Of a stretch of 64,000 bases of DNA, positions 1 to 16,508 are shown in pieces. Under the pieces are notes generated by a model. That model had not been told where the DNA came from and did no database searches. It worked only from the letters and a program-made list of their open reading frames with translations. Numbering within the stretch: the first letter of the stretch is position 1; each line of letters starts with the position of its first letter. The DNA comes from an uncultured Fibrobacter sp. Lineage in GTDB: Bacteria; Fibrobacterota; Chitinivibrionia; Chitinivibrionales; Chitinispirillaceae. The stretch spans positions 812-64,811 of the forward strand of contig CAYPMS010000008.1 of NCBI GenBank assembly GCA_964411655.1, given 5' to 3'. Position numbers and translations under genes: made by a program.

Positions 1-513
1 ATTTCTCCCGATAACAAATCCGCACTATGGCTTCTGGTGATGTTGGAGATTTCCCGTGACGGACTGGAAGAAGTACGTCTTAAATATGAACGTTTGGCCA
101 AAATTCCCTCTAAACCTCCAGTTTACGGTGAAATACATGCTTACCTCTGCAAAAAATCGGGAAAAATAGATAAAGCAGTAAACCAATATCAGAAACTACA
201 GACTAAGACTCAGGATCCTTCAATATTACGTAAAAAAGCTTTTGCACTGGCTAAATCCGGCCAGGAACTTCAGGCCATACCTTTACTTGAAGAACTTCTT
301 CGAATCTCTCCTGCAGATACATTTCTCCACTCCAGCTACTCAGCAGCCTGTAATCGCAGCAGCAATCTGGAACGGGCCTGGAAATTTTATCATGAGCTGT
401 TGAGCCTTAATCCGGATGATATGCGACTGTTCGGACGAATAAAAAAAATTCAGAAGAAACTGGAAGAATCATCAGATAAACCTGAAAAATTTGATTCGGA
501 TATCTCCTTATGA
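1..513 (+). CDS. TPR-like repeat protein, 5' end cut by window edge
   Basis: Frame 1 is open from nt 1 with no stop before the listed Met at 37, so the gene probably starts upstream of the window. The sequence is helical-repeat with TPR-like spacing (KKAFALAKSGQELQAIPLLEELLRISP; ERAWKFYHELLSLNP). The stop TGA at 511-513 overlaps the ATG at 510-512 of the next gene (ATGA). Confidence 0.6.
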   Translation: MSPDNKSALWLLVMLEISRDGLEEVRLKYERLAKIPSKPPVYGEIHAYLCKKSGKIDKAVNQYQKLQTKTQDPSILRKKAFALAKSGQELQAIPLLEELLRISPADTFLHSSYSAACNRSSNLERAWKFYHELLSLNPDDMRLFGRIKKIQKKLEESSDKPEKFDSDISL

Positions 514-3500
514 ATCAACAACCACTGCATAACTATACAATAGGAGATCTCATCGATGTACCACCTGTACAAACAGTAATCCGTCTTGAACAAAGCATCA
601 GTGAAGCCGGCAATATTGTCAATTCATTTGTCTTCACCTCAGATGTGGATACTCATTTTCAGGTTTTATCCCATTCATTTCTGCAGCAGCATGGACAAGG
701 CTATTTTCTTCAAGGAGATTTCGGTTCAGGAAAAAGTCACTTTCTTGCAGCTCTGGCGGCCTGGTTTTCAGAAGTACCAGGAAGCGACCATCTGACTTCC
801 CAACACTCAGGGTTGAAAAAAATCAGAGAAGCCTCCAAACATCTTCTGGCTGTATCAATTTCTTTGGTTAATTATCGCAGCAATACCTCTCTGGAAAATA
901 TTATTACCGGGGCAATAGAAGAAAAACTAAACACATTTAATATTAAAAAAGCCATTTCGGTTCAGAGCAGATTTCTTAATTATCTGAAAAGTCTTCTCAA
1001 TGATCCTGAATTATGTGAAGAATTCAGTTCCAGATTTGGAATTTTATCACAATCAATTGAACAATGGATCGATAAGCATCATCAGGAAGCACATTCCAAA
1101 GGTCTTCTGTTCATTAAAAGTAAAGGGCTGGATATTTCAGAACTCTATTCCAAAGAAAGATATCAGGTTTTTGAGACCGCTCTCAAAGCTGCCATAGAAG
1201 CAGGATTTAATGGTATTGTTCTGCTGATTGATGAATTATCGGAATTCTTTCGATCCAAACCTGACAGTACATCTCTTAACGAAGATGCCCGAACACTGCA
1301 GCTTTTAGGAGAATTAAGTAAAAACAACCCATTATGGATCATTGCAGCGGTTCAGGAAAGCATAGAACGCACCGGGGATGTTGCCCAGGCTACATTCCGT
1401 AAAATAAAAGACCGTTTTCCTGTTAAGCTGCATCTTTCCACTCTTCACATTAAAGATCTTATCTCCCGTCGTCTAATAAAAATCAAGCCTAATGCAGATA
1501 CGGTTGTATTTCGCATTTACGAAGAGTTTTGCAGACATTTTCCAGGATTCAATGTTACTCCAGCGCTTTTCAGAAGCATTTATCCTGTACATCCGTTGAC
1601 ATTATCACTCCTTGAAGGTTTGGGAGATCTTTTCTCCCAGCACCGCGGGATCGTTGATTTTGTTCATTCTCAAATAGCAGGTGATCCAGGAAGAAACATT
1701 CCCGGAGTCCTTGAGAGAACTTGTACAAGCCTGGTATCTCCAGATGCAATTTATGATCATTTTGCTCCAAGAATAGCCGAATTCTCATCATTCTACATCT
1801 ATCCCTCTCATATCATACCGCATCTGGATGAAACAATTGAAGAGTGTATCGATGATAAACAGGATAGGATTCTTTGTCGCAGATTGATCCGGATTCTTGT
1901 GCTTTACGCTATTCATCCTACAGCAACATCCCCTTCAGTAAGGGTTCTGGCAGAGCTGGTTTCCTGTATGCTTTCTTTTCAGGATCCCGATGCTAACAGT
2001 CAATATGTATCTGAAGTACTTCTGGATCCGATAGCAGAAAAAAGCAGATTTCTCATAAAAAAAGATTCCTCGACCGGTAATCCACTGGATGCAATTTACA
2101 TAATAAGCTCCAGTGAAGATCAGGGCAAAATTTTACGATCTAGAATTGATCGTGTTTTAAACGATATCGCACCAGAAGATTCAAGAGTCTTCTCTCTTCC
2201 TCTTTCAGAACTACCCGAATCCTATTCATGGCCAGGTCCTTCAATATGGAACAGACCAGTTGAACGCACTACTGTTTGGAGACAAAGTACCCGTAAAGTT
2301 GCCGTATTTTATCTGCACCCTGGAAATGAATTTTCAATCGAACAACAAATCGATGAGCTGCTTGCTAATGCCAGAATAGATATGGCGCTGGTAATTTCTG
2401 TTCAACAGATAAAAATGAATTGTAAAAACACTGCGGTATGGGTTATACCCTCGGATACTTCCGGGAACTCACTGTTTAAGGAGTACTTTGCCTGTAGAAT
2501 GATTGCCGGTGAACTTAAGACCGCAAACCCTTCCGATGCACCACAGATTCCCCAGCTAAAAGAAATGTTAAGAAAGCTTGAACCTGCCGTTCAACAACAT
2601 TTACTTCAACAGATTTACATGGGTTACTTTTGCGATTCCAATATCGAACTGGAGCCTTCTGCACGAGAGATAAAACGATTTGACAGAATCATAGAAGCTG
2701 CAGCAGAGCAGATTCTGGAAACCCGTTATCCCCGTTTCAAGGAAATTGCCTCAAGAAGCATTCCCCCATCTTTACGTTACTATCAAAGACTCTTTGAGGA
2801 ATTCATAATCCCTGGTACTATTTCCCTGAAAGATGCACGTACACAGGGTTTATCTGAAGCAATAGAAACTATGGCAGTTCCATTAGGGCTTGTTGAAGTT
2901 AAATCCGGCAATTACTTACTTTCTCCCAATCCTGTTTCCAACCAGTTCCTTTCATGGTTTTTCGGTCTGCTGCCGGCCTCTGGTCAGATCCCAATATCAA
3001 ATCTTCTTTTAAAACTGCAAACGGATGTATATGGCGCTCCGCATGATCTCGCATGCTTTCTGATTTCATCGCTTGCCTACTGCGGTCATATCTCATTAAT
3101 AAACAAAGGCCGTATAGTGCCAATTGACTTTATTAAACTGATGAATATTGATCAGTTCGAATATGTTGCTCCAGGAGAGCTTATCAATCAGGCAGACCGG
3201 GAGACCATTATTAGTTCATGTTCATTTTTAGGCAACTCTCTTTCCGGTGAATCTTTCGGACTCAGGCAGCAGCGTGATTTCTGGCAGGCGGTTCTGAAAT
3301 TTAAAACCAGTGGAGCATCATTGATAAGCGAACTGGATCGAAAAATCAAAACTCTCTCAGAATTTTCAGCTTTCAGTAATTTTGATTTTGATAATATTAA
3401 CAATAAATGTGTATCTCTTTGCAAAGTCCTTGATGAAATAAAAACCTCTTACAGTGCCCGTGAAGGATTGGAGCGTTTTCTGACTTCCTGGAGAAACTCC

Positions 3501-5492
3501 GGTTTAAAATCTGAGGATATTACCAGTCTGCGACAAATGGACCGGTTTCTTGGTCGTCATGCGGAAAGAATAGTTTTTATCAATCATTATCTTCATCATC
3601 ATTCGGTAACCGAAGCATCATCTGCAGACATTGAAACCGCTCAAAACAGGGATACTGTATTAATGATGCTACGTCAGCCTCATATATTGATTATCCCCGA
3701 CGAAGGAGAACAACTGCAGGCTGCATTTGATGCCTTTCGCCAATGTTATATGCGGAAATATTCCTCTGACCATGCCACTTTTCAGAAATCGCGTAAAAAA
3801 GCTGCTGTGTCAAGGCATTCCTTAAAAGCTTTGCAGACAATCCGCCGTCTTGCAGCCATTGCTGCACTTGACCGTCCCAAAGGGACACAGCAGCTTCTGG
3901 ATGAACTGGATAGGCCAGCTCCTGTCGTTTGTACAAGAAATACCAACGAAGAGCTTCTTCGTTCTCCTCTATGCAGTTGCGGTTATCAATGTGGTACTTC
4001 TCCGGAACAGTACAACACACCAGACCCTGAATCCTTAATCCAGAAAATTCTGAATGATTATGCAGAAATTCTTTGCACTTCTCAGGTGCTTGAAGCTGTT
4101 TCCTCTCGGGCTTTCGCTCTGAGGGATATAGATAAATACTCTTCAGAACGGCTTCAGAACCTGCATGTTTTTCTAAAAAGTAATATCTCTGCCGGATCTC
4201 TTGCTCTATGTGATCTTCTCGATGATTCAACGGTCACAGAACTGAATAAAGCTCTCTCTGGATTCACTTCCATAGAAAAAAGAAATCTTGGTGTTCTTGA
4301 AAACGAGCTTGCCGGCCGCCGTCTTACTCCTGCACGGATAAGGGAACTGTTTAATGAGTGGCTTGGAAATTCTTCAGGTGAAACCATCCTGTCAATTGAG
4401 CATAATACAGGCTCATCAGAATACAGCACGATAGAATCACTTCTCTGGCCCTTTCTTCACCAGAAAATTTTCCAAAACTCCATTCATGAACCAAGGGTTA
4501 TAAACACGCAACCGCAGACTTTATCAGCGATGCTTGAACAGCAGTATCCATCAGGAAAACTTTCCATTATTTTTGACAGGACCCCTACATCTGATCTTTT
4601 CGACTTTGTATGCAAGGAGCCTTTACATTATTCTGCCATACAGACTGCCTGGAATATCCTTTGTGATCGCATACTTAATACTGCAGAACCGACACCAGAA
4701 CACGTTTATTCCAATTTTCTGGACAATTCAGAAGGTGTACGTATTAAAAACCGTCTTATTGCTTTAAAAGATTTTTCCCGGAATTACGCATCCACTTTCC
4801 CTTCTAAACTGCGTGCCCGTCTTGCAGCATCATTTTTTTATAATGACACCTGGGCTACTCCTCAGCTTAAAAGAACGATCCAGGGGAAAATGGAAAAAAT
4901 CACTTCTGAGAGCAATGACTGGTTTCAGACATTGCCCCCGATTAAAAAAATCAACTATTCCGATTGTTCTACAGTCGTGCTGATAGATGGAGTCTCCATT
5001 GATATCTGGCTGGAAGTCTTGGCGACTAATTCTGCGCTTTTCAACAATGCAAATGCCAGTATTCATCGCCTTTCTGTCCCGAGCCTGACTATTGATAGTA
5101 TCAATGAAATGTTCAGTTTTCCGGCTAAAAGCGATCCTGCAGAGAGACTGACTGAACATCAAATTAACTATATTACCATATCAGGAAATGAAGACCATTT
5201 GTGGAAAGATCTTATTCCCAAATCAACAGCTTCAAAGCCGCAGCTTGTCAGAGTATCGTTTTTTGACGAGCAGGCACATGCAGGCAGTATCCGCCTCCAC
5301 GAGATGCCCATGCTGCTTCAAAACCTGCTTGCCAGAAACATTCCTCCGCTTCTTGATATGTGCAAAGGAGAAAAAAGATCTCTTGTAATGACATCTGATC
5401 ATGGATTCTCATTTACTCCCAAAGGCCTTTCACATGGTAATGGTGGACCTTATGAACAATCCATTTTCAGGGTTGAATGGCAACCAGGGTAG
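510..5492 (+). CDS. 1660-aa fusion protein: N-terminal BrxC/PglY-like (BREX-type) P-loop NTPase plus C-terminal PglZ (alkaline-phosphatase superfamily) domain
   Basis: Walker A is GDFGSGKSHFLAAL (about nt 713-750) and Walker B is IVLLIDELSEF (about nt 1215-1245), followed by WIIAAVQES and YPVHPLTL motifs typical of DUF499/DUF6079-type BREX ATPases. The C-terminal roughly 180 aa (about nt 4960-5489) shows the PglZ landmarks TVVLIDGVSIDIW, VPSLTIDS (putative Thr nucleophile), FFDEQAHAG and VMTSDHGFS. It is one uninterrupted ORF. Confidence 0.7.
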   Translation: MNQQPLHNYTIGDLIDVPPVQTVIRLEQSISEAGNIVNSFVFTSDVDTHFQVLSHSFLQQHGQGYFLQGDFGSGKSHFLAALAAWFSEVPGSDHLTSQHSGLKKIREASKHLLAVSISLVNYRSNTSLENIITGAIEEKLNTFNIKKAISVQSRFLNYLKSLLNDPELCEEFSSRFGILSQSIEQWIDKHHQEAHSKGLLFIKSKGLDISELYSKERYQVFETALKAAIEAGFNGIVLLIDELSEFFRSKPDSTSLNEDARTLQLLGELSKNNPLWIIAAVQESIERTGDVAQATFRKIKDRFPVKLHLSTLHIKDLISRRLIKIKPNADTVVFRIYEEFCRHFPGFNVTPALFRSIYPVHPLTLSLLEGLGDLFSQHRGIVDFVHSQIAGDPGRNIPGVLERTCTSLVSPDAIYDHFAPRIAEFSSFYIYPSHIIPHLDETIEECIDDKQDRILCRRLIRILVLYAIHPTATSPSVRVLAELVSCMLSFQDPDANSQYVSEVLLDPIAEKSRFLIKKDSSTGNPLDAIYIISSSEDQGKILRSRIDRVLNDIAPEDSRVFSLPLSELPESYSWPGPSIWNRPVERTTVWRQSTRKVAVFYLHPGNEFSIEQQIDELLANARIDMALVISVQQIKMNCKNTAVWVIPSDTSGNSLFKEYFACRMIAGELKTANPSDAPQIPQLKEMLRKLEPAVQQHLLQQIYMGYFCDSNIELEPSAREIKRFDRIIEAAAEQILETRYPRFKEIASRSIPPSLRYYQRLFEEFIIPGTISLKDARTQGLSEAIETMAVPLGLVEVKSGNYLLSPNPVSNQFLSWFFGLLPASGQIPISNLLLKLQTDVYGAPHDLACFLISSLAYCGHISLINKGRIVPIDFIKLMNIDQFEYVAPGELINQADRETIISSCSFLGNSLSGESFGLRQQRDFWQAVLKFKTSGASLISELDRKIKTLSEFSAFSNFDFDNINNKCVSLCKVLDEIKTSYSAREGLERFLTSWRNSGLKSEDITSLRQMDRFLGRHAERIVFINHYLHHHSVTEASSADIETAQNRDTVLMMLRQPHILIIPDEGEQLQAAFDAFRQCYMRKYSSDHATFQKSRKKAAVSRHSLKALQTIRRLAAIAALDRPKGTQQLLDELDRPAPVVCTRNTNEELLRSPLCSCGYQCGTSPEQYNTPDPESLIQKILNDYAEILCTSQVLEAVSSRAFALRDIDKYSSERLQNLHVFLKSNISAGSLALCDLLDDSTVTELNKALSGFTSIEKRNLGVLENELAGRRLTPARIRELFNEWLGNSSGETILSIEHNTGSSEYSTIESLLWPFLHQKIFQNSIHEPRVINTQPQTLSAMLEQQYPSGKLSIIFDRTPTSDLFDFVCKEPLHYSAIQTAWNILCDRILNTAEPTPEHVYSNFLDNSEGVRIKNRLIALKDFSRNYASTFPSKLRARLAASFFYNDTWATPQLKRTIQGKMEKITSESNDWFQTLPPIKKINYSDCSTVVLIDGVSIDIWLEVLATNSALFNNANASIHRLSVPSLTIDSINEMFSFPAKSDPAERLTEHQINYITISGNEDHLWKDLIPKSTASKPQLVRVSFFDEQAHAGSIRLHEMPMLLQNLLARNIPPLLDMCKGEKRSLVMTSDHGFSFTPKGLSHGNGGPYEQSIFRVEWQPG

Positions 5493-5558: not shown

Positions 5559-6404
5559 ATGAGTGAAAGCCTGAAAAATGAACTATTCAGATTACAGCCC
5601 AGATTTATTTATCTGGAGCTTTTATTCCTTTATACAATTGCCTCAATCTGTATCATCTCCTGGTTTCCCCCCATCTTTTCTCTTTTAGCTTTTGAAGAGA
5701 TACTGCGTTCAGCAATTAATGCTTCCTTGCTTCTGAATTTAACTGCTTTTGTAATTTTCCTGCTTTATAAATTCATAAAGGATGAAATACGACGTATCTC
5801 TTTTATAATTACAGATGATCATGTTATCATAAAAGGTTTCTCCAGAACCACATCAGTTCGTCTTTCAGATATTAATAATGTTCAATATGTCAGAATACCT
5901 GTAGTTCGCGGTTTTCTCAAGCTAAGTACATCAGATAACGTAATTAAAATTCCATTATTAATTGAACATACCATGACCTTTATCACATCTTTGCAAAGCA
6001 GACTCAATAAGAATCCGAATGTTTCATCCGGCATCAATGACAAACGATTATACGAAGACGTGAAGGTATTCCAGGACTCTTACCAGCGTTCCTTGAGAGC
6101 TTTTTCTCCACTTATTCTGATTTCTCTTTTCATGTTTTTTTTCAACACCATTATTGCAGTTGAATTCTGGGAACTAGCTCTTATTCCAACCTTATTATTT
6201 GCAATGATCGGTCTGCTTCTTCCCACGATTGGGTACCACATTGCCGATGTCAAAATAAATCATTCTGTCAGAAACCTTCTCAGATCAAATACCGCCGAGT
6301 TGCATAACAACAGCATGGAATATCTTTATAGTGGATTTCTTATATTTATCTTATATCTTTTTATCGGATTTTTTTTTAAGGCCGTCTTTCTGTGGACCTA
6401 TTAA
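5559..6404 (+). CDS. Multi-pass membrane protein with a central bacterial PH-like (bPH_2/YdbT-like) domain
   Basis: There are two N-terminal hydrophobic helices. A soluble segment follows (ISFIITDDHVIIKGFSRTTSVRLSDINNVQYVRIPVVRGFLKLSTSDNVIKIPL) that resembles bPH_2 domains. Two or three C-terminal TM helices complete the protein. Confidence 0.5.
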   Translation: MSESLKNELFRLQPRFIYLELLFLYTIASICIISWFPPIFSLLAFEEILRSAINASLLLNLTAFVIFLLYKFIKDEIRRISFIITDDHVIIKGFSRTTSVRLSDINNVQYVRIPVVRGFLKLSTSDNVIKIPLLIEHTMTFITSLQSRLNKNPNVSSGINDKRLYEDVKVFQDSYQRSLRAFSPLILISLFMFFFNTIIAVEFWELALIPTLLFAMIGLLLPTIGYHIADVKINHSVRNLLRSNTAELHNNSMEYLYSGFLIFILYLFIGFFFKAVFLWTY

Positions 6405-7378
6405 ATAAACCCCTTGTACTTAGAAGCAAATCTATTACGCCTCCATTACTCTGTGCTCCGATGGCTGGACTTACCCATAGTGCATTCAGACGGCTACTGG
6501 CAGATTTCGGAGGTTACGGTTGTCTTTACACTGAGATGCTCTCAGTAAAAGCACTTCTGGTTGAAGACCTCAGCCGGTCTCCATTTACCAAAAAAAGATC
6601 CAGTGAAGGTAATGTCATCTACCAGTTAAAATTATCAGGCAATGAACCAATAAAAAAAATCATAGAACGCATTGCCAGTATCGAACCATTTGCAATAGAT
6701 ATAAACCTTGGATGTCCCGCACCTGAGGTTAGTAAAGACGGTTGTGGCAAATCACTTTTTGATAATATAGAACTGTTAGAAACTACTCTTGATAAATTCA
6801 GGAATTGCTGGAATGGCATACTGACCATTAAATGTCGTCTGGGAAATAATGGACCTGGCTGGGAGGATCGTTTTTCTGCACGGATTAAACTGTTTGAAAA
6901 GTATGGTATCGACGGGATCTGTGTTCACCCCAGATTTTCTGATGAAAAACTGAAAAGAGAAGCCCGCTGGAATCTTTTCGCATGGATCAGATCTCAAAGC
7001 AGAATTCCTCTTATTGCTAACGGTGATATAGGTGATCTCACCGCATTGGAACTGATTTCTTCCGGTAAATGTGATGCTTTGATGATTGGCCGCATGGCTG
7101 TTGTAAAGCCATGGATTTTCAGGGAGTTAAGAGGTGAAACAGTCAATTTTGATTATGCAGAGGTCTGGAACCGTCATCTGGATTATATCTGTGAAGACTT
7201 CCCGGCAGAAAAAGCTATTGGTAGAATAAAAGAATTTACATCCTATTATTCCAAAAACTTTTTCTTTGGCCATGAGCTATTCAGAGTAGTGCAATCAGCT
7301 CCTTCAATCCAACTGCTTAGGGAAAGAGCCAACTGTTTTTTGACCTCCGGTCCCCAGATTAGCGCTGTAAAGCTGTAA
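6392..7378 (+). CDS. dus: tRNA-dihydrouridine synthase (Dus family)
   Basis: LLCAPMAGLTHSAFRRL, DINLGCPAPEV and IANGDI are classic Dus/FMN TIM-barrel motifs. The only available start is GTG at 6392, which overlaps the upstream gene by 13 nt. Confidence 0.9.
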   Translation: MDLLNKPLVLRSKSITPPLLCAPMAGLTHSAFRRLLADFGGYGCLYTEMLSVKALLVEDLSRSPFTKKRSSEGNVIYQLKLSGNEPIKKIIERIASIEPFAIDINLGCPAPEVSKDGCGKSLFDNIELLETTLDKFRNCWNGILTIKCRLGNNGPGWEDRFSARIKLFEKYGIDGICVHPRFSDEKLKREARWNLFAWIRSQSRIPLIANGDIGDLTALELISSGKCDALMIGRMAVVKPWIFRELRGETVNFDYAEVWNRHLDYICEDFPAEKAIGRIKEFTSYYSKNFFFGHELFRVVQSAPSIQLLRERANCFLTSGPQISAVKL

Positions 7379-7404
7379 AAAAAAAATCTGATTTAAGTCA
7401 TGAT

Positions 7405-8613
7405 TCAGATCACCAGTTCCAGTGTAAATCCTTTGTGTTTGGCCATATCTATTAAAATCGGTTTAACTTTCTGCCGGTTTTTGGTCTCGTATATAATAAT
7501 TTGAGGATTTTCCAGATTTTCCGGGTTATCACGTGCTACCACCCCATAATAACCTATTAACTGAGGTGTTGGTGCATTGACAATTTTTATTCTTGCACCT
7601 ACCGGATACAATGGAACAATAGTAGTCAGAGTCTTAACAATGTCCGCATTGAGCAGATTACCACCCATTTCAATGAGATTTCTTAATGAGGTTTTTATAT
7701 CGCAAGGCTCGATCCCTTCTCGCGGTCTACCAGAAATATAAGAGTCGTAACAATCTGCAACTGCCACAATTTCAGCAAACCTGTGTATCATATTCTGTCT
7801 TGAAAAATCCTTTAGCGGTGGGCGGTTATCCCCTTTTATTCCTTGGGGGTAGCCTGTTCCATTCTGCCTTTCGTGATGCTGCAAAGCAACGGCTGCACTG
7901 GTTGAGGGGATTGCATGATTCTGAGAAAGCATAAGAAAGCCATAAACTGTATGCTGCTGAAAAGTTTTCAGTTCCTCTGAATTGTATTCAGTTATTTTTT
8001 TGGCAAGCAGCTCTTTTGGCAAAGCAATCAGTCCCAGTTCGTAATTGAGCGCTCCAATGCCAAGCTGTTTCATCTCTTCGTAAGACAATTTGTATTTCTT
8101 GCCAATGCAAAGAGAGGTTATGGTAACGTTTAGCGCATGTCCCAGAAGACTGGGTTGAGTCTGTTGCATGGCTGATAAATTAAGCACAATAGATGATTGA
8201 CTCATGATTTCTTCTACAAACTTGTCCAGAGCCTTAACCATCCCATTACTCATTATAAACTTGTTCAGGTACTGTTTGTTTTCCTTTAAAATATCCTTAA
8301 TCTTATCTGTACTTTTAACACGGAAATGGTCAATAGCATTTGCAAGCTCTTTTGAGCTGGAATCAATTGATTGACTCATCTCCCTCTGAGCCGCTTCAGA
8401 TACAACATCTTGCGGAGTTACACTCTCGGTACCTTCAACATCTATAAGGACATTGCGGTAACCCAACTGTTTTAATCTTTCACGGTACCTTTCCTTTACT
8501 CTATAGCCAGCTGCCAAAAGAAGTTCTCCTGAAGGCAGCACTATAGATTCACCAAGAACCATATCTTCTTGGACCTGATCTAAAGTATATCTTACCACAA
8601 TTACCTTCCACAA
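7405..8613 (-). CDS. HD-GYP domain c-di-GMP phosphodiesterase-type protein
   Basis: HALNV...LQHHERQNGTGYPQGIKG is the HD plus GYP signature. An N-terminal roughly 55-aa domain and a coiled middle region are also present. Confidence 0.85.
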   Translation of the reverse strand: MWKVIVVRYTLDQVQEDMVLGESIVLPSGELLLAAGYRVKERYRERLKQLGYRNVLIDVEGTESVTPQDVVSEAAQREMSQSIDSSSKELANAIDHFRVKSTDKIKDILKENKQYLNKFIMSNGMVKALDKFVEEIMSQSSIVLNLSAMQQTQPSLLGHALNVTITSLCIGKKYKLSYEEMKQLGIGALNYELGLIALPKELLAKKITEYNSEELKTFQQHTVYGFLMLSQNHAIPSTSAAVALQHHERQNGTGYPQGIKGDNRPPLKDFSRQNMIHRFAEIVAVADCYDSYISGRPREGIEPCDIKTSLRNLIEMGGNLLNADIVKTLTTIVPLYPVGARIKIVNAPTPQLIGYYGVVARDNPENLENPQIIIYETKNRQKVKPILIDMAKHKGFTLELVI

Positions 8614-8775
8614 TCACAACAATACATCTTTTGAGTAATACTTAAGATTATACACACATTTAGACCAATATTCAAAGTGCATTTTGGCCTCTCTGAAATT
8701 TATTTATTCTATCATGAGCAAAAGTCCAAACCCTCACTTATATTACAAAGATATAATCAGCATCGAAGGCAATAT

Positions 8776-9609
8776 ATGATAGGACTGATAAAAGAGATCT
8801 CTTCTCTGGATGAACCTGAAATTGAAATATATCGCACATTAAAACGGCCTCAACAGCACAGAGAACAAGGATTTTTCGTAGTCGAAGGTGACAAAGTAGT
8901 CAACAGATTTCTTCAAAGTAATTTGCGTGTAGTCTCGGTCTTATTGGTTTCTGATCTATTGGATTTTTATTATCCACTTATTGAAAAAAGACCGGAAAAG
9001 ATAAATATCTATACCACATCTGCACCACTATTAAAAGCTATCGTCGGCTTCCGGTATCACCAGGGAATCATGGCCGTAGGCTTGGTTCCACAGCCTCGAT
9101 CTCTGGAACAAATTCTTTCTGTTTTAATAGAACCTGCAATCTTTGTAGCATTGGATCGGCTTGAAAGTGCAGAAAATACAGGGGTTATTGTTAGAAATTG
9201 TGTTGCAAACGGAGTGCAGGCATTGATTATAGGTGAAAAATCTACAGACCCGTTTCTGCGAAGAGCTGTCCGTAACTCTATGGGTACTCTGTTTAACCTT
9301 CCGGTAATTTATTCAGAAAAACTCACAACTACTCTGGCGCAGCTTCGCGATTCGCACAATTTCCAAATAATTGCAGCTCACCCCAGAACTCAAAGCCAGA
9401 ATATCTTCTCTGTCGATTTATGTAAAAACAGTTGTATCGTTCTTGGAAATGAAGGTGTTGGAATCAGTTCTGATGTCCTGAGCCAATGTGACATTGAGGT
9501 GTGTATCCCCATGGTTTCCAGTGTTGATTCTTTAAATGTTGCTTGTGCCAGTGCAGTAATTCTGTATGAAGTGACACGTCAACGACACAGGGCTGGAATT
9601 TTTCTGTAA
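8776..9609 (+). CDS. TrmH/SpoU family RNA 2'-O-methyltransferase
   Basis: ENTGVIVRN, IVLGNEGVGIS and SLNVACASAVILYE are SpoU methylase motifs. I prefer the ATG at 8776 (MIGLIKE...) over the listed GTG at 8677. Confidence 0.85.
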   Translation: MIGLIKEISSLDEPEIEIYRTLKRPQQHREQGFFVVEGDKVVNRFLQSNLRVVSVLLVSDLLDFYYPLIEKRPEKINIYTTSAPLLKAIVGFRYHQGIMAVGLVPQPRSLEQILSVLIEPAIFVALDRLESAENTGVIVRNCVANGVQALIIGEKSTDPFLRRAVRNSMGTLFNLPVIYSEKLTTTLAQLRDSHNFQIIAAHPRTQSQNIFSVDLCKNSCIVLGNEGVGISSDVLSQCDIEVCIPMVSSVDSLNVACASAVILYEVTRQRHRAGIFL

Positions 9610-9663
9610 AAACTGGCATTCTACTTTTCAGATATTTTTCTCATTAAAGATACAAATGCACAC

Positions 9664-9694
9664 AATGAAGGCCCAACTTAAGGGAGCCTTCATT
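9664..9694. terminator. Hairpin between convergent genes (possible bidirectional terminator)
   Basis: AATGAAGGC (9664-9672) pairs perfectly with GCCTTCATT (9686-9694) around a 13-nt loop. The downstream sequence is T-rich. Confidence 0.4.
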
Positions 9695-9798
9695 ATTACA
9701 TTGCCGATTTTATTCGAGTATAAAATTGTAATCTCTTAGCTTGAAAACTGCTCCTCAATCCTCAACTGCCCTCTGAAGTTTCCAAAGGATAAGTCAGG

Positions 9799-10890
9799 TT
9801 AGAAATTGACAATAATTTCTGATCCGATACCATAAAGCAGACCATCTCTTTTAGATTTTTCAATCATAGGTACAACCACCTGTCCCCAGAGCCACCACTG
9901 AACGTTTTCTGTTGGGTAGATATAGAAAGTGGGAACTGCCCAGAATGCGTTGTCATCCTTATTTTCCAGATCCATCCCATGAATTTCCAGAGGAAGTCCG
10001 ACTGAAAATTTATCTGTAAAAGAGAACCCTGGCTCTATATAATAGAAAAACTCATCACTGATTCCCAATAATGGTGATGCAGTAAGATCAGTATTAGCAG
10101 AATCCGGGTCAAACATTGCATATGCAGCCATTGCAGTTGTTAATTTGCTAAATTTAAACAACGGCTCTACAAGCAATGTAAATACATTCTTTCGCTCTTC
10201 TCCAGGGAAATTGATATAACCGAAATCGGTTTTCAGAGACAGGATTTCTCCGAATTCTCCTAGATACTCAATACCGGCAAAAACTTTACTTCCGGTAGAA
10301 AAACTTAACATTGAGTTATTCTGAAAGCCGTAACTCAGGTTAAGCAAGTGTTTCTCTGTGAGAGTCAGATTTGTGGCACCCTGAACATCGGCAATCGTTT
10401 CACCAAGATCCGAAATTCCTGCAGTTACTTCCTGAGTGATGAGATCATTTCCGATACTGTATCTGATACCCCTGGTGAAACCCTCTGGAGTTATCATACT
10501 TAATCTCTTATAATAATAGTAATTAAATTTACCATACTGATAAACCAGATCTCCAACAGAAAAAGTGCCAAATGAGCTGGAAAAGGTTACATCGAATCCA
10601 TCAAATTTTATATCCAGCCATCTGTCAGAAGGGTTTCCGACACCAGCCGGTACTCTTCCTGGTTCACCGGCATTATTGGCTGAATTAACTGTTGCATAAA
10701 CATGAGAACTAACTTTATCATTAAATTTCAAAGACATGCCCAAGTCCAGTTCACTGTTTACATAGTATTTGCCTTTAAGATCTGCCCATACATCGGCATC
10801 GAGATATCCGCCGAAATCAATCTGCGGACCTGCGGCATTAAGAGTTGTAAAGAAAACTCCTATTGCAAATGGTATTGTTTTTACTTTCAT
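9799..10890 (-). CDS. Outer-membrane beta-barrel (porin-like) protein
   Basis: A signal peptide (MKVKTIPFAIGVFFTTLNAAG) is present, with alternating amphipathic strands and a C-terminal aromatic residue (IVNF). The preferred start is the ATG at 10890, with GGAAAGGA 6 nt upstream. Confidence 0.65.
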   Translation of the reverse strand: MKVKTIPFAIGVFFTTLNAAGPQIDFGGYLDADVWADLKGKYYVNSELDLGMSLKFNDKVSSHVYATVNSANNAGEPGRVPAGVGNPSDRWLDIKFDGFDVTFSSSFGTFSVGDLVYQYGKFNYYYYKRLSMITPEGFTRGIRYSIGNDLITQEVTAGISDLGETIADVQGATNLTLTEKHLLNLSYGFQNNSMLSFSTGSKVFAGIEYLGEFGEILSLKTDFGYINFPGEERKNVFTLLVEPLFKFSKLTTAMAAYAMFDPDSANTDLTASPLLGISDEFFYYIEPGFSFTDKFSVGLPLEIHGMDLENKDDNAFWAVPTFYIYPTENVQWWLWGQVVVPMIEKSKRDGLLYGIGSEIIVNF

Positions 10891-11130
10891 ACTCATCCTT
10901 TCCAGTGAGAAGGTACATTTAGGTAATCCGGCACACAGCTGCGATCCGCCGCACTTAATGAGCAACAACTATGCCATTACTGTTTCTGTATATTTTCAGT
11001 TAAGAATGGAAAGGAAGAGTAATTTTAGCAAAACAAATTTGTGTTATGATACGAATGTGTGTTTTAACTAGTTAACAAGAGTACATTGACTAAGCATTCC
11101 AATCAAATTACCGTTTTGGCATTTCTGGTT

Positions 11131-11174: not shown

Positions 11175-13010
11175 TTAACTGGCATTTGCCTTCAGTTTAT
11201 CGACAAACATCTGGCGGTAGAAGAAAAGTTTGGGATCGGTAACGCGGAATTTTTTTTCTCCGAAGGAAATATCGCTGCCAGTTTCGGTACGTATACCATA
11301 TCCGATGTGAACATGAGGGCCGCTGGTTCTTCCAGTCATGCCAACAGTCCCAAGGACCTGGCCTTTTCTGACTCTGGTACCGTTTTTAACATATCTTCTG
11401 TCCAAATGAGCAAAGAAAATAACCATACCATCAGCAACTACTCCAACGGTTCTTCCGGCTACTGCATTTGTAAGTAAATATGCTTCCCCGTCGATAGGGC
11501 TTATGACTTCTGAACCATATTGCGCAGCCACATCCAGACCATAATGGGGTTGACCTCCACCTGTACCTCTCTCGCACCAATCTCCGGTTAAGTAAGATAA
11601 TGAATCACCAACCATGCTTTTAAAAAAGCTATATACAGGTAGAAGTTGCTTCTCTTCAGGGTTGATTATTTTCTGGGGTGGATAAAAATCAACTTCCAAA
11701 CCATCTGGAATATAATCCGGAGTTTTGATCTTTGTCTCCCCTTCAAGACGGGTTAGATTATGGGTGGAAACTACTTCCAGAACATATTGATTTATCTCCT
11801 CAAAACTGGGGACAACAGCTCTGAAGTGGCAGATAGCAAATTTGGCCAGCTTGTAGATCGATTCACCCTGACTGAACCTATGGGTGTAGATCTTGTCTTT
11901 AGCGATAGACAGTTGTTGGGGGGCAACCGGACGGGGAGCAATTGACTCAACCACCTGAGAATTTAATCCATAAATTACCACCAACGCGGTAGCCGCACAT
12001 AGTTTTGGAATAGCTTCAAGGATCACTACTTTTTTATTGTTTACTGCTGGAACAGGTGTATTTAATACATATTGTACTCTGTTGGCTAACTCATCAAAGG
12101 CTTTGGTAACAGCAGCATTTTTTTTATAAGACTGCAGAGTTTTACCCTCATCCTGGGCATCTCTTACAATTGCAGACTCAGGTATTTCAAGATCAAACAT
12201 GATAGATTGGGGCAGTAGTGAGATACCACTGCTTCCTTCAAAGGAGACCTGCTCACAGAGGTTTTCCAGAAATTTACGGTTTTCACTCATGGTACGGGTT
12301 TTACCCTTGAGTTTGGATTCCTGATTACCAAACACCTCATTCTTAATTATTCTGATTCGTAACGCGGGATTACGTTCTGAGAGCCGGCTTACATTTGACA
12401 GATAATCACGAAGGCTCTTGGTGGACAAAGCATTCAGAGTAACCGGTATGAGATTAAGGTCACTGTGAAGATAAAGATATCTGGTCAGTGAGTTCCATAC
12501 AGAGGGAGTATCTATAACAATATATTTATAATATTCACGGCAGGAACACAGGTTAGTTACCAGGTTTTCCAGTTGCAGTCTTGAAGGTGTCTTAAAAAGA
12601 TCAGAATTTGCAGGAATGAGATCCAGCCCAGGCTGAATATTGATTGTCAGAGAAGTGACAGAGGCAGCCTTAATGGCTTTAACTATCATTTCATTGTTTT
12701 TGATATGCAAAATCTCACGGATTTTTCGGAAAAATAGTTCAGCCCGTGAGCTCTGATTGCTTGAGAAACGTCTGCGGAAAAGTTCCCATGAAGACAGTAC
12801 TGGATTTTCAGATTTGTGTCCCAAAGCTACTGTGGCACTTCCCTGAACATCCAGATCTATTATCAGTGTAGGACCTCTATTGGAAAGAGATGCTGCCAGA
12901 TTAGTAGCGACAGTCGATTTCCCTACCCCGCCCTTGATGTTTGCGATATGAATGATACCACCGTTATCCGTATCAGCAAATATCAGAGCGCTTTTGGCCC
13001 TTACACCCAT
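11175..13010 (-). CDS. ParA/MinD-type ATPase fused through a TM helix to a periplasmic M23 (LytM) peptidase domain
   Basis: The deviant Walker A is KGGVGKST (aa 26-33) and the Walker B is YIVIDTPS. A hydrophobic helix VVILEAIPKLCAATALVVIYGL lies at about aa 328-349. M23 zinc motifs HYGLD (HxxxD) and GPHVHIG (HxH) are intact near the C-terminus. Confidence 0.8.
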   Translation of the reverse strand: MGVRAKSALIFADTDNGGIIHIANIKGGVGKSTVATNLAASLSNRGPTLIIDLDVQGSATVALGHKSENPVLSSWELFRRRFSSNQSSRAELFFRKIREILHIKNNEMIVKAIKAASVTSLTINIQPGLDLIPANSDLFKTPSRLQLENLVTNLCSCREYYKYIVIDTPSVWNSLTRYLYLHSDLNLIPVTLNALSTKSLRDYLSNVSRLSERNPALRIRIIKNEVFGNQESKLKGKTRTMSENRKFLENLCEQVSFEGSSGISLLPQSIMFDLEIPESAIVRDAQDEGKTLQSYKKNAAVTKAFDELANRVQYVLNTPVPAVNNKKVVILEAIPKLCAATALVVIYGLNSQVVESIAPRPVAPQQLSIAKDKIYTHRFSQGESIYKLAKFAICHFRAVVPSFEEINQYVLEVVSTHNLTRLEGETKIKTPDYIPDGLEVDFYPPQKIINPEEKQLLPVYSFFKSMVGDSLSYLTGDWCERGTGGGQPHYGLDVAAQYGSEVISPIDGEAYLLTNAVAGRTVGVVADGMVIFFAHLDRRYVKNGTRVRKGQVLGTVGMTGRTSGPHVHIGYGIRTETGSDISFGEKKFRVTDPKLFFYRQMFVDKLKANAS

Positions 13011-16422: not shown

Positions 16423-16508
16423 GCCCGGGTGGCGGAATAGGTAGACGCTGCGGACTTAAAATCCGTTCCTGTGAAAACGGGGTGCCGGTTCGATTCCGGC
16501 CCTGGGCA
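16423..16508 (+). tRNA. tRNA-Leu (anticodon UAA), class II with long variable arm
   Basis: The acceptor stem GCCCGGG pairs with CCTGGGC, with discriminator A. The anticodon arm is GCGGA-CTTAAAA-TCCGT, giving anticodon TAA. The T-arm is GCCGGTTCGATTCCGGC, and a long variable arm is present. Confidence 0.9.

What the first reader, a model, noticed from the sequence alone, without database searches (positions are those of the whole stretch)
510..5492. Single 1660-aa polypeptide fusing a BREX-type P-loop ATPase to a PglZ phosphatase-fold domain
What the sequence shows:
- An uninterrupted ORF runs from 510 to 5492.
- Its N-terminal part carries Walker A GDFGSGKSHF and Walker B LLIDELSEF, followed by a long helical body with a YPVHP motif. 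This organisation is what I associate with BrxC/PglY (DUF499/DUF6079-like) ATPases.
- Its last roughly 180 aa carry the PglZ landmarks: VVLIDGVSID, PSLT (putative Thr nucleophile), D..AH and TSDHG.
- A Cys cluster (C-x13-C-x-C-x3-C, CTRNTNEELLRSPLCSCGYQCG) sits in the middle.

Established knowledge: in BREX and Pgl phage-resistance systems, the ATPase (BrxC/PglY) and PglZ are separate, co-occurring core genes.

Inference: a covalent fusion of the two would be a compact, atypical BREX-like core, or a new PglZ-based machine. I do not know of a described example. The PglZ part here is a minimal core, much shorter than canonical BREX PglZ proteins.
Basis: partly seen in the sequence, partly recalled or inferred. 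Interest (0 to 1): 0.8.

Follow-up and report, generated by a model that had tools for sequence, protein, structure and literature searches.

The report
BrxC-PglZ fusion with TPR partner
One 1660-residue protein joins the two hallmark enzymes of BREX phage-defence systems, a DNA-binding ATPase and a PglZ-type metal phosphodiesterase/nuclease. It almost always sits beside one small TPR protein and never beside the other BREX genes, so it is an undescribed, stripped-down relative of BREX whose biological role is still open.

Summary
ORF 510..5492 encodes a 1660-aa protein.

- **N-terminus (aa ~19-448):** a BrxC/PglY-type AAA+ ATPase (Pfam DUF6079 E 3.5e-36; profile vs the BrxC structure E 1.5e-12). 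Walker A, Walker B and the arginine-finger residues are invariant.
- **C-terminus (aa ~1485-1660):** an alkaline-phosphatase-superfamily core. The model has pLDDT 95, and its best structural match is the PglZ domain of PorX (Foldseek E 3e-9). All seven PglZ metal ligands are conserved. The Pfam PglZ model does not detect it.
- **Conservation:** the fusion is kept at ~1650 aa in more than 590 protein clusters, all from uncultured bacteria (Fibrobacterota, Spirochaetota, Desulfobacterota, PVC, and distant Firmicutes).

A specific ~330-aa TPR gene lies adjacent in 66 of 69 loci, usually overlapping by 4 nt; the window holds only its 3' end. No PglX, BrxA, BrxB or BrxL gene is present, and there is no defence-island, plasmid or viral context. 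The protein tree follows phyla. Subsets also carry SWIM-SNF2, RecD2 or RNase D neighbours.

Best reading: an ATP-gated PglZ nuclease machine that acts on DNA and derives from the BREX core. Whether it serves defence or genome maintenance is unresolved. No description of it was found in the literature.

The parts
1..513 (+). 3' end (last 170 codons) of the partner TPR gene. The full gene is 332 aa and starts 486 nt upstream of the window (L001:1937-2935). Its stop TGA (511-513) overlaps the ATG (510-512) of the fusion gene.
   Evidence: TPR Pfam hits on 37-510. Full gene on the source contig. ATGA overlap read directly. A member of the same TPR family is adjacent in 66 of 69 homologous loci; 28 of 51 measured junctions have the 4-nt overlap.
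510..5492 (+). Fusion gene, 1660 aa: BrxC-like AAA+ ATPase, family-specific DNA-binding-like body, PglZ-like phosphodiesterase core.
564..1853 (+). BrxC/PglY-type (ORC/Cdc6-clade) AAA+ ATPase domain, aa ~19-448.
   Evidence: Pfam DUF6079 E 3.5e-36. Profile vs PDB BrxC covers aa 19-335, E 1.5e-12. hhalign covers aa 40-448, E 1.4e-13.
714..737 (+). Walker A, GDFGSGKS (aa 69-76); K75 is invariant.
   Evidence: Aligns with the BrxC Walker A region (FGSGKSHFL); K78 is named the BrxC Walker A lysine in PMC13326643.
1218..1235 (+). Walker B, VLLIDE (aa 237-242); D241 and E242 are invariant.
   Evidence: Aligns with the BrxC Walker B region (LFLVDE); E269 is named the BrxC Walker B residue in PMC13326643.
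1401..1415 (+). K298-x3-R302, the candidate arginine-finger pair; both are invariant.
   Evidence: 'FRKIKDRF' aligns with BrxC 'FSKIAGRF', whose K326/R330 contact ATP in trans (PMC13326643).
1854..4646 (+). Family-specific central body, aa 449-1379. Predicted order: helical region; six-stranded alpha+beta domain (aa ~515-645); helical region; two winged-helix-like units (aa ~755-890); long helical region (aa ~918-1290).
   Evidence: AF2 model of aa 420-1400, pLDDT 82.5. No PDB fold match, E > 0.5. No sequence similarity to BrxC beyond aa 448. The domain order resembles that described for BrxC (PMC12839542), but this is a resemblance only.
3930..3980 (+). Conserved Cys cluster C1141-x13-C1155-x-C1157, a possible Zn site. 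C904 (nt 3219-3221) is a candidate fourth ligand.
Evidence: The three Cys are invariant in 108/108 and C904 is conserved in 106/108. Metal binding was not tested.
4647..4961 (+). Helical pre-domain packed on the phosphodiesterase core, aa 1380-1484.
   Evidence: AF2 model, four helices, pLDDT > 90.
4962..5489 (+). Minimal PglZ-type alkaline-phosphatase-superfamily core, aa 1485-1660. Ligands are D1493, T1527 (nucleophile), D1586/H1590, D1630/H1631 and H1642, plus E1649.
   Evidence: Foldseek to PorX PglZ, E 3e-9. hhalign to BREX-1 PglZ, P = 4.9e-4, motifs in register. Ligands are conserved. They correspond to PorX D239, T272, D361, H365, D415, H416, H500 and E507 (PMC9757075).

Best explanation
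This is a self-contained two-gene module descended from the BREX core. It consists of a ~330-aa TPR protein, probably translationally coupled (4-nt start/stop overlap), and a 1660-aa enzyme in which a BrxC-type AAA+ ATPase is covalently joined to a minimal PglZ metal-phosphodiesterase.

Proposed mechanism:
1. The ATPase domain binds ATP and self-associates on DNA as BrxC does. This is inferred from homology and from the invariant Walker A, Walker B and K298/R302 finger residues.
2. The central body provides DNA contacts and possibly dimerisation. It contains an alpha+beta domain, winged-helix-like units, a long helical region and a Cys3 cluster. This step is inferred from predicted structure only.
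3. The C-terminal PglZ core has a complete two-metal site and a Thr nucleophile. It cuts phosphodiester bonds, by nicking or cleaving DNA or oligonucleotides as shown for BREX PglZ and PorX. The covalent link replaces the BrxB bridge that tethers PglZ to BrxC in BREX.
4. The TPR protein is the regulator or adaptor (inferred).

The module has no methyltransferase, so the choice of target cannot rest on BREX-type methylation. The most likely role is surveillance or processing of DNA. Anti-foreign-DNA defence and a chromosomal DNA transaction are both still open. SWIM-SNF2 and RecD2 helicases act as accessory motors in some lineages.
For: **Shown here**
- ATPase homology to BrxC, with all catalytic residues invariant.
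- PglZ-type fold with the full ligand set.
- A transitive sequence link to Pfam PglZ. The C-terminal profile hits P0200 at E 6e-13, and P0200 itself passes the PF08665 cut-off at 27.1 bits against 25.
- The fusion and its length are conserved in more than 590 clusters. Members only 27% identical keep the same layout: L086 (1784 aa) and P0219 (1754 aa).
- A specific TPR family is adjacent in 66/69 loci, with 4-nt overlaps. It has diverged in step with the fusion: median 42% identity for the TPR against 40-45% for most cross-phylum homologues of the fusion.
- Recurrent neighbours are nucleic-acid motors and nucleases. Among 117 flanking genes there are RecD2 x11, RNase D x8 and SWIM-SNF2 x7. The SNF2 linkage is seen in three phyla and in two orientations.

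**From the literature**
- BrxC, BrxB and PglZ form a core complex, and BrxC oligomerises on DNA with ATP (PMC13326643).
- BREX PglZ is a metal-dependent nickase/nuclease that is inhibited by ATP; T538A abolishes activity (PMC12205998).
- The PorX PglZ domain is a Zn phosphodiesterase acting on oligonucleotides (PMC9757075).
Against: - No biochemical or genetic data exist, and every member comes from a metagenome-assembled genome.
- The Pfam PglZ HMM does not hit. A profile search against one BREX-1 PglZ sequence, ranked among about 2,100 decoy ORFs, gives only E = 0.12, and profile-profile probability is only 32%.
- About 930 aa of central body have no structural or sequence match, so the DNA-binding role is a guess.
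- Several findings argue against a defence role in particular:
  - No PglX, BrxA, BrxB, BrxL or other modification gene was seen in about 80 loci.
  - Immediate neighbours are otherwise heterogeneous housekeeping genes, and the only PADLOC matches are generic helicase or exonuclease domains.
  - No copy was found on 72,556 plasmids or in IMG/VR viral contigs.
  - The protein tree groups by phylum.
  - No hypervariable region is present; window-averaged majority-residue frequency across the 108-homologue alignment is 0.37-0.84 along the whole length.
Confidence: 0.5

Rival explanations
1. It is a non-defence, vertically inherited DNA-maintenance machine, acting in replication restart, repair or recombination, or in nucleoid processing. 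The BrxC-like ATPase loads on chromosomal DNA structures and the PglZ core processes DNA ends or nicks together with RecD2, SWIM-SNF2 or RNase D. On this view the BREX core was derived from, or shares an ancestor with, a housekeeping machine.
For: - The tree follows phyla: Fibrobacterota, PVC, Spirochaetota and Desulfobacterota each form a clade.
- Synteny is stable within lineages. RecD2 lies directly downstream in 12 Spirochaetota loci, and RNase D lies upstream in 9 Desulfobacterota loci.
- Neighbours are housekeeping genes: Dus, SpoU, ScpA, pyruvate dehydrogenase and flagellar genes.
- No plasmid or viral copies were found.
- Conservation is even and fairly high over 1650 aa and in the TPR partner.
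- No self/non-self marking enzyme is present.
Against: - Only 124 of 185,579 species representatives carry a relative. The gene pair is therefore dispensable and sporadic within each phylum, which fits an accessory function.
- Every characterised BrxC+PglZ pairing is a defence system (PMC12839542).
- PIN and nucleotidyltransferase toxin-antitoxin-like genes flank a few loci.
- Phylum-level clustering can also arise from preferential transfer within a phylum.
- Synteny with RecD2 or RNase D may only reflect lineage history.
Confidence: 0.3
2. It is a nucleotide-signal processing enzyme. Like PorX, the PglZ core hydrolyses cyclic or linear oligonucleotide messengers, and the ATPase and TPR parts act as the sensor or switch rather than as a DNA-loading machine.
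For: - The closest structural relatives by three orders of magnitude are PorX PglZ domains, which cleave oligoadenylates and bind pGpG (PMC9757075).
- BREX PglZ also cleaves cyclic and linear oligonucleotides (PMC12205998).
Against: - No cyclase, CARF/SAVED or other signalling gene is linked.
- The recurrent neighbours are DNA helicases and nucleases.
- The N-terminal domain belongs to the DNA-binding BrxC (ORC/Cdc6-like) clade.
- The PorX residues that bind the nucleotide bases are poorly conserved even among PglZ proteins.
Confidence: 0.12
3. The C-terminal domain is a catalytically dead scaffold, or the long ORF is an assembly or annotation artefact that joins two genes.
For: The Pfam PglZ model fails to match. 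The sequence comes from a metagenome.
Against: - The same ~1650-aa single ORF recurs on hundreds of independent contigs from different projects and phyla.
- All seven metal ligands and the Thr nucleophile are conserved in 106-108 of 108 sequences.
- The model is confident, at pLDDT 94.9.
Confidence: 0.02

Closest known systems
BREX core: BrxC/PglY ATPase plus PglZ (types 1-6), bridged by BrxB
   Same: - The N-terminal AAA+ domain is homologous, with equivalent Walker A, Walker B and finger residues.
- The C-terminal core has the PglZ fold and ligand set.
- In BREX the two proteins act in one complex (PMC13326643), which this protein hard-wires.
   Different: - Here there is one polypeptide; in BREX there are separate genes.
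- There is no BrxB, so the PglZ N-terminal domain that binds BrxB is also absent.
- There is no PglX methyltransferase, BrxA or BrxL.
- The PglZ part is reduced to about 175 aa and lacks the inactive Swi2/Snf2-like, HTH, helical-linker and Ig-like domains.
- Beyond aa 448 there is no sequence similarity to BrxC. The NCBIfam BrxC score is 57 bits against a cut-off of 400.
- The TPR partner is obligate; TPR is not mentioned in the 2026 BREX survey.
- The gene pair is not found in defence islands.
PorX response regulator (PglZ domain; PDB 7PV7, 8TEF and others)
   Same: It is the best structural match of the C-terminal domain (Foldseek E 3e-9, probability 1.0). The same seven metal ligands occur in the same order, including D-x3-H, [TS]-D-H-G and H-x6-E.
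   Different: PorX pairs the domain with a CheY receiver and regulates type IX secretion. Its PglZ domain is about 300 aa with a cap subdomain. Sequence identity is only 9-14% and TM-score is about 0.49.
Pfam PF19557 DUF6079 / BrxC-PglY_N family (~1240-aa proteins)
   Same: The protein passes the family cut-off (124.6 bits), and NCBI names it 'DUF6079 family protein'.
   Different: The best-scoring matched stretch spans profile positions 171-393 of 1238 (protein aa 234-461). This protein is about 400 aa longer and ends in a PglZ core that the family model does not contain.
HerA/FtsK-centred BREX-related system (Rakesh and Krishnan 2026, PMC12839542)
   Same: It is a non-canonical setting in which a DUF6079 ATPase and a trimmed PglZ co-occur without PglX.
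   Different: That system has seven separate genes (PglZ, DUF6079, STAND, DUF4007, HerA/FtsK, GNAT, TGT). None of the other five is linked here, and PglZ is not fused there.
DUF499/SspC-type ATPases (Ssp phosphorothioation systems and BREX-related 'BR' systems)
   Same: Weak PADLOC SspC hits (E 6.7e-10) reflect the shared ORC/Cdc6-like ATPase clade.
   Different: These hits score well below the BrxC models. No SspABD, methyltransferase or helicase-nuclease partner genes are present.

Membership tests
BrxC/PglY (NCBIfam NF033441 / NF047891) | Full-length match above the curated cut-off (400 and 1700 bits). | tested here: not met
   57.3 bits for BrxC and 18.1 bits for PglY, N-terminal region only.
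BrxC/PglY (NCBIfam NF033441 / NF047891) | N-terminal ORC/Cdc6-type AAA+ domain with Walker A Lys, Walker B Glu and trans-acting Lys/Arg fingers. | tested here: met
   Profile vs 9zn5_A, E 1.5e-12, with motifs aligned. hhalign E 1.4e-13. K75, E242, K298 and R302 are invariant.
BrxC/PglY (NCBIfam NF033441 / NF047891) | C-terminal body: wHTH, alpha+beta domain, wHTH, coiled coil with a distal subdomain. | tested here: inconclusive
   The AF2 secondary-structure order is similar. There is no sequence match beyond aa 448 and no fold match. The BrxC body is unresolved in the PDB entries.
Pfam PF19557 (DUF6079 / BrxC-PglY_N) | Score at or above the gathering cut-off of 23 bits. | tested here: met
   124.6 bits, E 3.5e-36, but the best-scoring stretch spans only profile positions 171-393 of 1238.
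PglZ domain (Pfam PF08665) | Score at or above the gathering cut-off of 25 bits. | tested here: not met
   No hit at E <= 1 on the whole protein or on aa 1301-1660. An intermediate, P0200, is hit by this family's profile at 6e-13 and itself scores 27.1 bits on PF08665.
PglZ domain (Pfam PF08665) | Alkaline-phosphatase-superfamily fold closest to solved PglZ domains. | tested here: met
   The pLDDT 94.9 model has PorX PglZ domains as its top 17 Foldseek hits (E 2.7e-9 to 1.2e-6). BREX PglZ 9zn5_B scores 3.1e-5.
PglZ domain (Pfam PF08665) | Seven metal-coordinating residues (PorX D239, T272, D361, H365, D415, H416, H500) and the core motifs L-P-[TS]-x-T, [TS]-D-H-G and H-G-G-x4-E. | tested here: met
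   D1493, T1527, D1586, H1590, D1630, H1631 and H1642 are conserved in 106-108 of 108 sequences. VPSLT, TSDHG and H1642-x6-E1649 are present. Five of the motifs are placed in register by hhalign against BREX-1 PglZ. The last His/Glu are assigned by spacing only.
BREX system (any type) | A linked modification enzyme: PglX/BrxX methyltransferase, or PAPS reductase in type 4. | tested here: not met
   None is present in the window or in about 80 homologous loci. No methyltransferase family appears among the 25 most frequent Pfam families of the 117 flanking genes, which is all the tool lists.
BREX system (any type) | BrxA-like and BrxB-like (iSTAND) components, said to be universal in PMC12839542. 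| tested here: not met
   No DUF1819 or DUF1788 gene is adjacent. No such domain was recognised inside the fusion by Pfam or PADLOC. A cryptic BrxB-like fold in the central body cannot be excluded.
Anti-phage defence system (generic) | Enrichment in defence islands or on mobile elements, with patchy, horizontally transferred distribution. | tested here: not met
   The PADLOC families listed (the 25 most frequent) all belong to the same three neighbour groups, RecD2, SNF2 and RNase D. There are no plasmid or viral copies. The tree is congruent with phyla. Distribution is nonetheless sparse, at 124 of 185,579 species.
Anti-phage defence system (generic) | Protection against phage or plasmid on expression. 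| not testable with these tools
   This needs a heterologous expression and challenge experiment.

The most novel reading that the evidence does not exclude
The TPR + BrxC-PglZ pair is not a defence system. It is an ancient, mostly vertically inherited DNA-transaction machine of anaerobic Fibrobacterota, Spirochaetota, Desulfobacterota and PVC bacteria, working with RecD2 and SWIM-SNF2 helicases. It would be a free-living relative, or the ancestor, of the BrxC-PglZ core that BREX later combined with a methyltransferase. That would give the first indication of what the enigmatic BREX core does to DNA outside immunity.
Probability: 0.3. Interest if true: 0.8.

Novelty: new variant of a known kind. 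Interest (0 to 1): 0.62.

Why it matters
How BREX stops phage replication is still unresolved. In 2025-2026 PglZ was shown to be a nuclease, and BrxB, BrxC and PglZ were shown to form the core complex. This family is a natural covalent BrxC-PglZ fusion. It dispenses with BrxB, PglX, BrxA and BrxL and needs only one TPR partner.

It matters for three reasons:
- It confirms independently that ATPase plus PglZ is the functional unit.
- It offers a two-protein minimal system in which ATP control of the PglZ active site could be studied without the flexible multi-subunit BREX complex.
- It shows that this core can exist without methylation-based self-recognition. That implies either a new way of choosing targets or a non-immune function.

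The family is currently invisible to PADLOC-type defence annotation and is labelled only DUF6079.

Tried and rejected
- **Pfam, NCBIfam and PADLOC on the C-terminus alone.** No PglZ hit.
- **C-terminal profile against PDB sequences.** Only a non-significant PorX hit, E 1.2.
- **C-terminal profile against 1.84 billion representative proteins.** Only 109 hits.
- **C-terminal profile against one BREX-1 PglZ sequence.** In a database with about 2,100 decoy ORFs it was the top hit, but at E 0.12. hhalign against a 121-sequence BREX-1 PglZ alignment gave P = 4.9e-4 and probability 32%.
- **AF2 model of aa 420-1400 against PDB.** Nothing below E 0.5. The question whether a BrxB-like or BrxC-body fold hides in the middle stays open.
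- **Foldseek of the C-terminal model against viral proteins.** Only giant-virus alkaline phosphatase and NPP enzymes were found.
- **The 281-aa ORF downstream (5559..6404) as a third component.** Rejected. It is conserved only in six close relatives and has no family hits.
- **Promoter and terminator scans.** Counts equal the shuffled expectation, so they are uninformative.
- **Plasmid and IMG/VR searches.** No family member was found.
- **A four-Cys zinc-finger reading of the Cys cluster.** Rejected as stated, because C1161 is not conserved.
- **Assembly artefact.** Rejected on the basis.

Full report
**Observation.** The window holds an uninterrupted ATG ORF at 510..5492 (+) encoding 1660 aa.
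- Walker A, aa 69-78.
- Walker B, aa 238-246.
- YPVHP, aa 358-362.
- VVLIDGVSID, aa 1489-1498.
- PSLT, aa 1524-1527.
- DEQAH, aa 1586-1590.
- TSDHG, aa 1628-1632.
- Cys string, aa 1141-1162.

A search of 5.8 billion protein clusters returned 594 homologues. The best 120 are almost all 1640-1710 aa long and 40-88% identical over 99-100% of the query. Where they carry a name, it is only 'DUF6079 family protein' or 'hypothetical protein'. The ORF is therefore a real, conserved gene.

**N-terminal domain.**
- Pfam DUF6079 (now called BrxC-PglY_N) matches at E 3.5e-36 and 124.6 bits. The best-scoring stretch spans profile positions 171-393 of 1238, which is protein aa 234-461.
- PADLOC BrxC models match at E 1.6e-27.
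- NCBIfam BrxC scores 57 bits, far below its 400-bit cut-off.
- A profile of 50 family members hits the solved BrxC ATPase domains (9zn5_A E 1.5e-12, 9zdx_C E 8.7e-11) over aa 19-335, with Walker A, Walker B and the 'F-x-K-I-x-x-R-F' segment aligned.
- hhalign against a canonical plasmid BrxC covers aa 40-448 (probability 98%, E 1.4e-13) and nothing further.
- In BrxC, K78, E269 and K326/R330 are the Walker A, Walker B and finger residues (PMC13326643). The residues aligned with the same segments here, K75, E242 and K298/R302, are invariant in 108 homologues. The ATPase is therefore very probably active.

**C-terminal domain.** No family HMM recognises it. Four other lines of evidence identify it.
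- An AlphaFold2 model of aa 1380-1660, built on a 33-sequence alignment, is confident (pLDDT 94.9, pTM 0.92).
- Foldseek against the PDB gives PorX PglZ domains as the 17 best matches (E 2.7e-9 to 1.2e-6). Next come PbgA/MCR-1 at about 1e-5, BREX PglZ (9zn5_B) at 3.1e-5, and ENPP and other alkaline-phosphatase-superfamily enzymes.
- The PorX paper lists the residues that define PglZ domains (PMC9757075): metal ligands D239, T272, D361, H365, D415, H416 and H500, and core residues such as L-P-[TS]-x-T, [TS]-D-H-G and H-G-G-x4-E. The fusion has D1493, VPSL-T1527, D1586-x3-H1590, S-D1630-H1631-G and H1642-G-x-G-G-x-x-E1649. All are conserved in 106-108 of 108 sequences.
- hhalign of the family profile against 121 BREX-1 PglZ domains aligns four of these motifs in register (P = 4.9e-4, probability 32%).

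One further link supports the assignment. An exhaustive HMMER search of 1.84 billion representatives found only 109 hits. A few of these lie outside the family, such as P0200 (E 6e-13), which itself passes the Pfam PglZ cut-off.

Conclusion: this is a divergent, minimal PglZ core of about 175 aa with a complete two-metal site and a Thr nucleophile. It lacks all the accessory domains of BREX PglZ.

**Middle of the protein.** A model of aa 420-1400 (pLDDT 82.5) predicts, in order:
- a helical region;
- a six-stranded alpha+beta domain (aa ~515-645);
- more helices;
- two winged-helix-like units (aa ~755-890);
- a long helical region (aa ~918-1290).

This order resembles the domain series described for BrxC (PMC12839542). 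However, it has no PDB fold match and no detectable sequence similarity to BrxC, so the resemblance is only a lead.

The Cys cluster lies in a loop of the helical region. C1141, C1155 and C1157 are invariant and C904 is nearly so.

**Partner gene.** The ORF at 37..513 is the tail of a 332-aa all-TPR protein. Its gene begins upstream of the window, and its stop overlaps the fusion's ATG (ATGA). Evidence that the two genes form a unit:
- Scanning one genome for each of 185,579 species found 124 species with a relative, of which 80 loci were retrieved.
- Of the 69 loci with at least 1.1 kb of upstream DNA, a member of the same TPR family is adjacent in 66. It is upstream on the same strand in 65 and downstream in L042. 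It is absent from the fetched flank in L030, L033 and L085.
- 28 of 51 cleanly measured junctions have the 4-nt overlap.
- The TPR protein has diverged in step with the fusion (median 42% identity to the query's partner).
- The TPR partner persists in the most distant members. A Firmicutes MAG has a 342-aa TPR gene and a 1784-aa fusion that is 27% identical over aa 11-1290, with a recognisable VLIDG...D-x3-H C-terminus. P0219, 1754 aa, also has a TPR gene directly upstream.

**Wider context.**
- No PglX, BrxA, BrxB, BrxL or any other modification gene is linked in any locus inspected.
- Among the 117 genes immediately flanking the pair, Pfam finds 100 different families. The recurrent ones are RecD2/YrrC helicase (11), RNase D (8), SWIM-SNF2 helicase (7) and PIN (3).
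- RecD2 is confined to Spirochaetota and lies directly downstream. RNase D is confined to Desulfobacterota.
- The 25 most frequent PADLOC families among these neighbours, which is all the tool lists, are generic helicase or exonuclease models, and all belong to those same three neighbour groups.
- The SNF2 gene is linked in three phyla and in two orientations, directly upstream on the same strand or downstream on the opposite strand. This argues for functional coupling.
- The 281-aa ORF downstream in the window is conserved only in six close relatives and is not part of the module.
- No member is found on 72,556 plasmids; only BrxC ATPase domains match there, at 23% identity. None is found in IMG/VR viral contigs.
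- A neighbour-joining tree of 62 full-length members groups them by phylum: Fibrobacterota, PVC, Spirochaetota, Desulfobacterota.
- All carriers are metagenome-assembled genomes from uncultured bacteria.

**Mechanism.** The following points are shown:
- An intact BrxC-type ATPase.
- An intact PglZ-type active site.
- The covalent linkage of the two.
- The TPR partnership.
- The absence of the other BREX genes.

By inference from BREX biochemistry, the ATPase should bind and oligomerise on DNA in an ATP-dependent way. The PglZ core should cut phosphodiester bonds in DNA or oligonucleotides in a metal-dependent way. In BREX the two are held together through BrxB; here the polypeptide chain does that job. 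The TPR protein is the obvious candidate regulator or adaptor. With no methyltransferase, self/non-self discrimination of the BREX kind is impossible.

I commit to an ATP-gated PglZ nuclease module that acts on DNA and derives from the BREX core (confidence 0.5). The biological role remains split between defence against foreign DNA and a chromosomal DNA transaction. The context and phylogeny look less like those of a typical defence gene than expected. The sparse distribution argues against a core housekeeping role.

**Comparison with known systems and novelty.** The protein works like, and descends from, the BrxC-PglZ core. It is not a member of any BREX type, because the modification enzyme, BrxA and BrxB are all missing. 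It also fails the curated BrxC and PglZ family thresholds.

The most recent comprehensive BREX survey catalogues many domain fusions and a new DUF6079+PglZ seven-gene system (PMC12839542). It reports neither a BrxC-PglZ fusion nor a TPR component. Other full-text searches found nothing.

I rate it a new variant of a known kind, with interest 0.62. A BREX specialist would find the natural fusion timely and useful as a minimal model. The possibility of a non-immune BrxC-PglZ machine is the more surprising reading.

Noticed in passing
window 5559-6404 (+): A 281-aa ORF starts 67 nt downstream of the fusion gene. It has no Pfam or PADLOC hit and is conserved in that position only in the six closest Fibrobacterota relatives.
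   Followed up: partly
window 11175-13010 (-): A 611-aa protein joins a ParA/MinD-type ATPase (AAA_31, CbiA) to a C-terminal M23 peptidase domain. This is an unusual combination.
   Followed up: no
L001:64-1047 and L006:7528-8496: A Y1 (IS200-like) transposase-family gene lies just upstream of the TPR gene in the query's own contig and in a 55%-identical Fibrobacterota relative. The position is conserved, so it looks domesticated (REP-associated type) rather than a recent insertion.
   Followed up: no
L044, L059, L066 (Spirochaetota): Four genes sit together: SWIM-SNF2 helicase, TPR, fusion and RecD2/YrrC helicase. In L059 the SNF2 gene is downstream on the opposite strand. In L066 the RecD2 gene is broken into three ORFs.
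   Followed up: partly
L042 (Planctomycetia), fusion 6001-11007, TPR 11195-12334: This is the only locus where the TPR gene follows the fusion gene instead of preceding it. It is also the deepest branch of the tree.
   Followed up: no
L065 and L069 (same MAG, CSMAG_1186): Two different copies of the module lie on contigs with very different coverage (44x and 225x). This suggests either a binning mixture or a second copy on a multicopy element.
   Followed up: no
L083:1313-2521: The TPR partner is split into two ORFs here, by a frameshift or an assembly error. In L030, L033 and L085 no TPR partner was found within the fetched flank.
   Followed up: partly
P0229 (555 aa): A protein retrieved with a BREX-1 PglZ query carries both PF19557 (BrxC-PglY_N) and PF08665 (PglZ) annotations on a 4.2-kb contig. 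It may be another, independent BrxC-PglZ junction, or it may be a chimeric or frameshifted gene call.
   Followed up: no
window 16423-16508 (+): tRNA-Leu(TAA) is the only RNA gene detected in the 64-kb window. The rest of the window looks like ordinary chromosome.
   Followed up: yes
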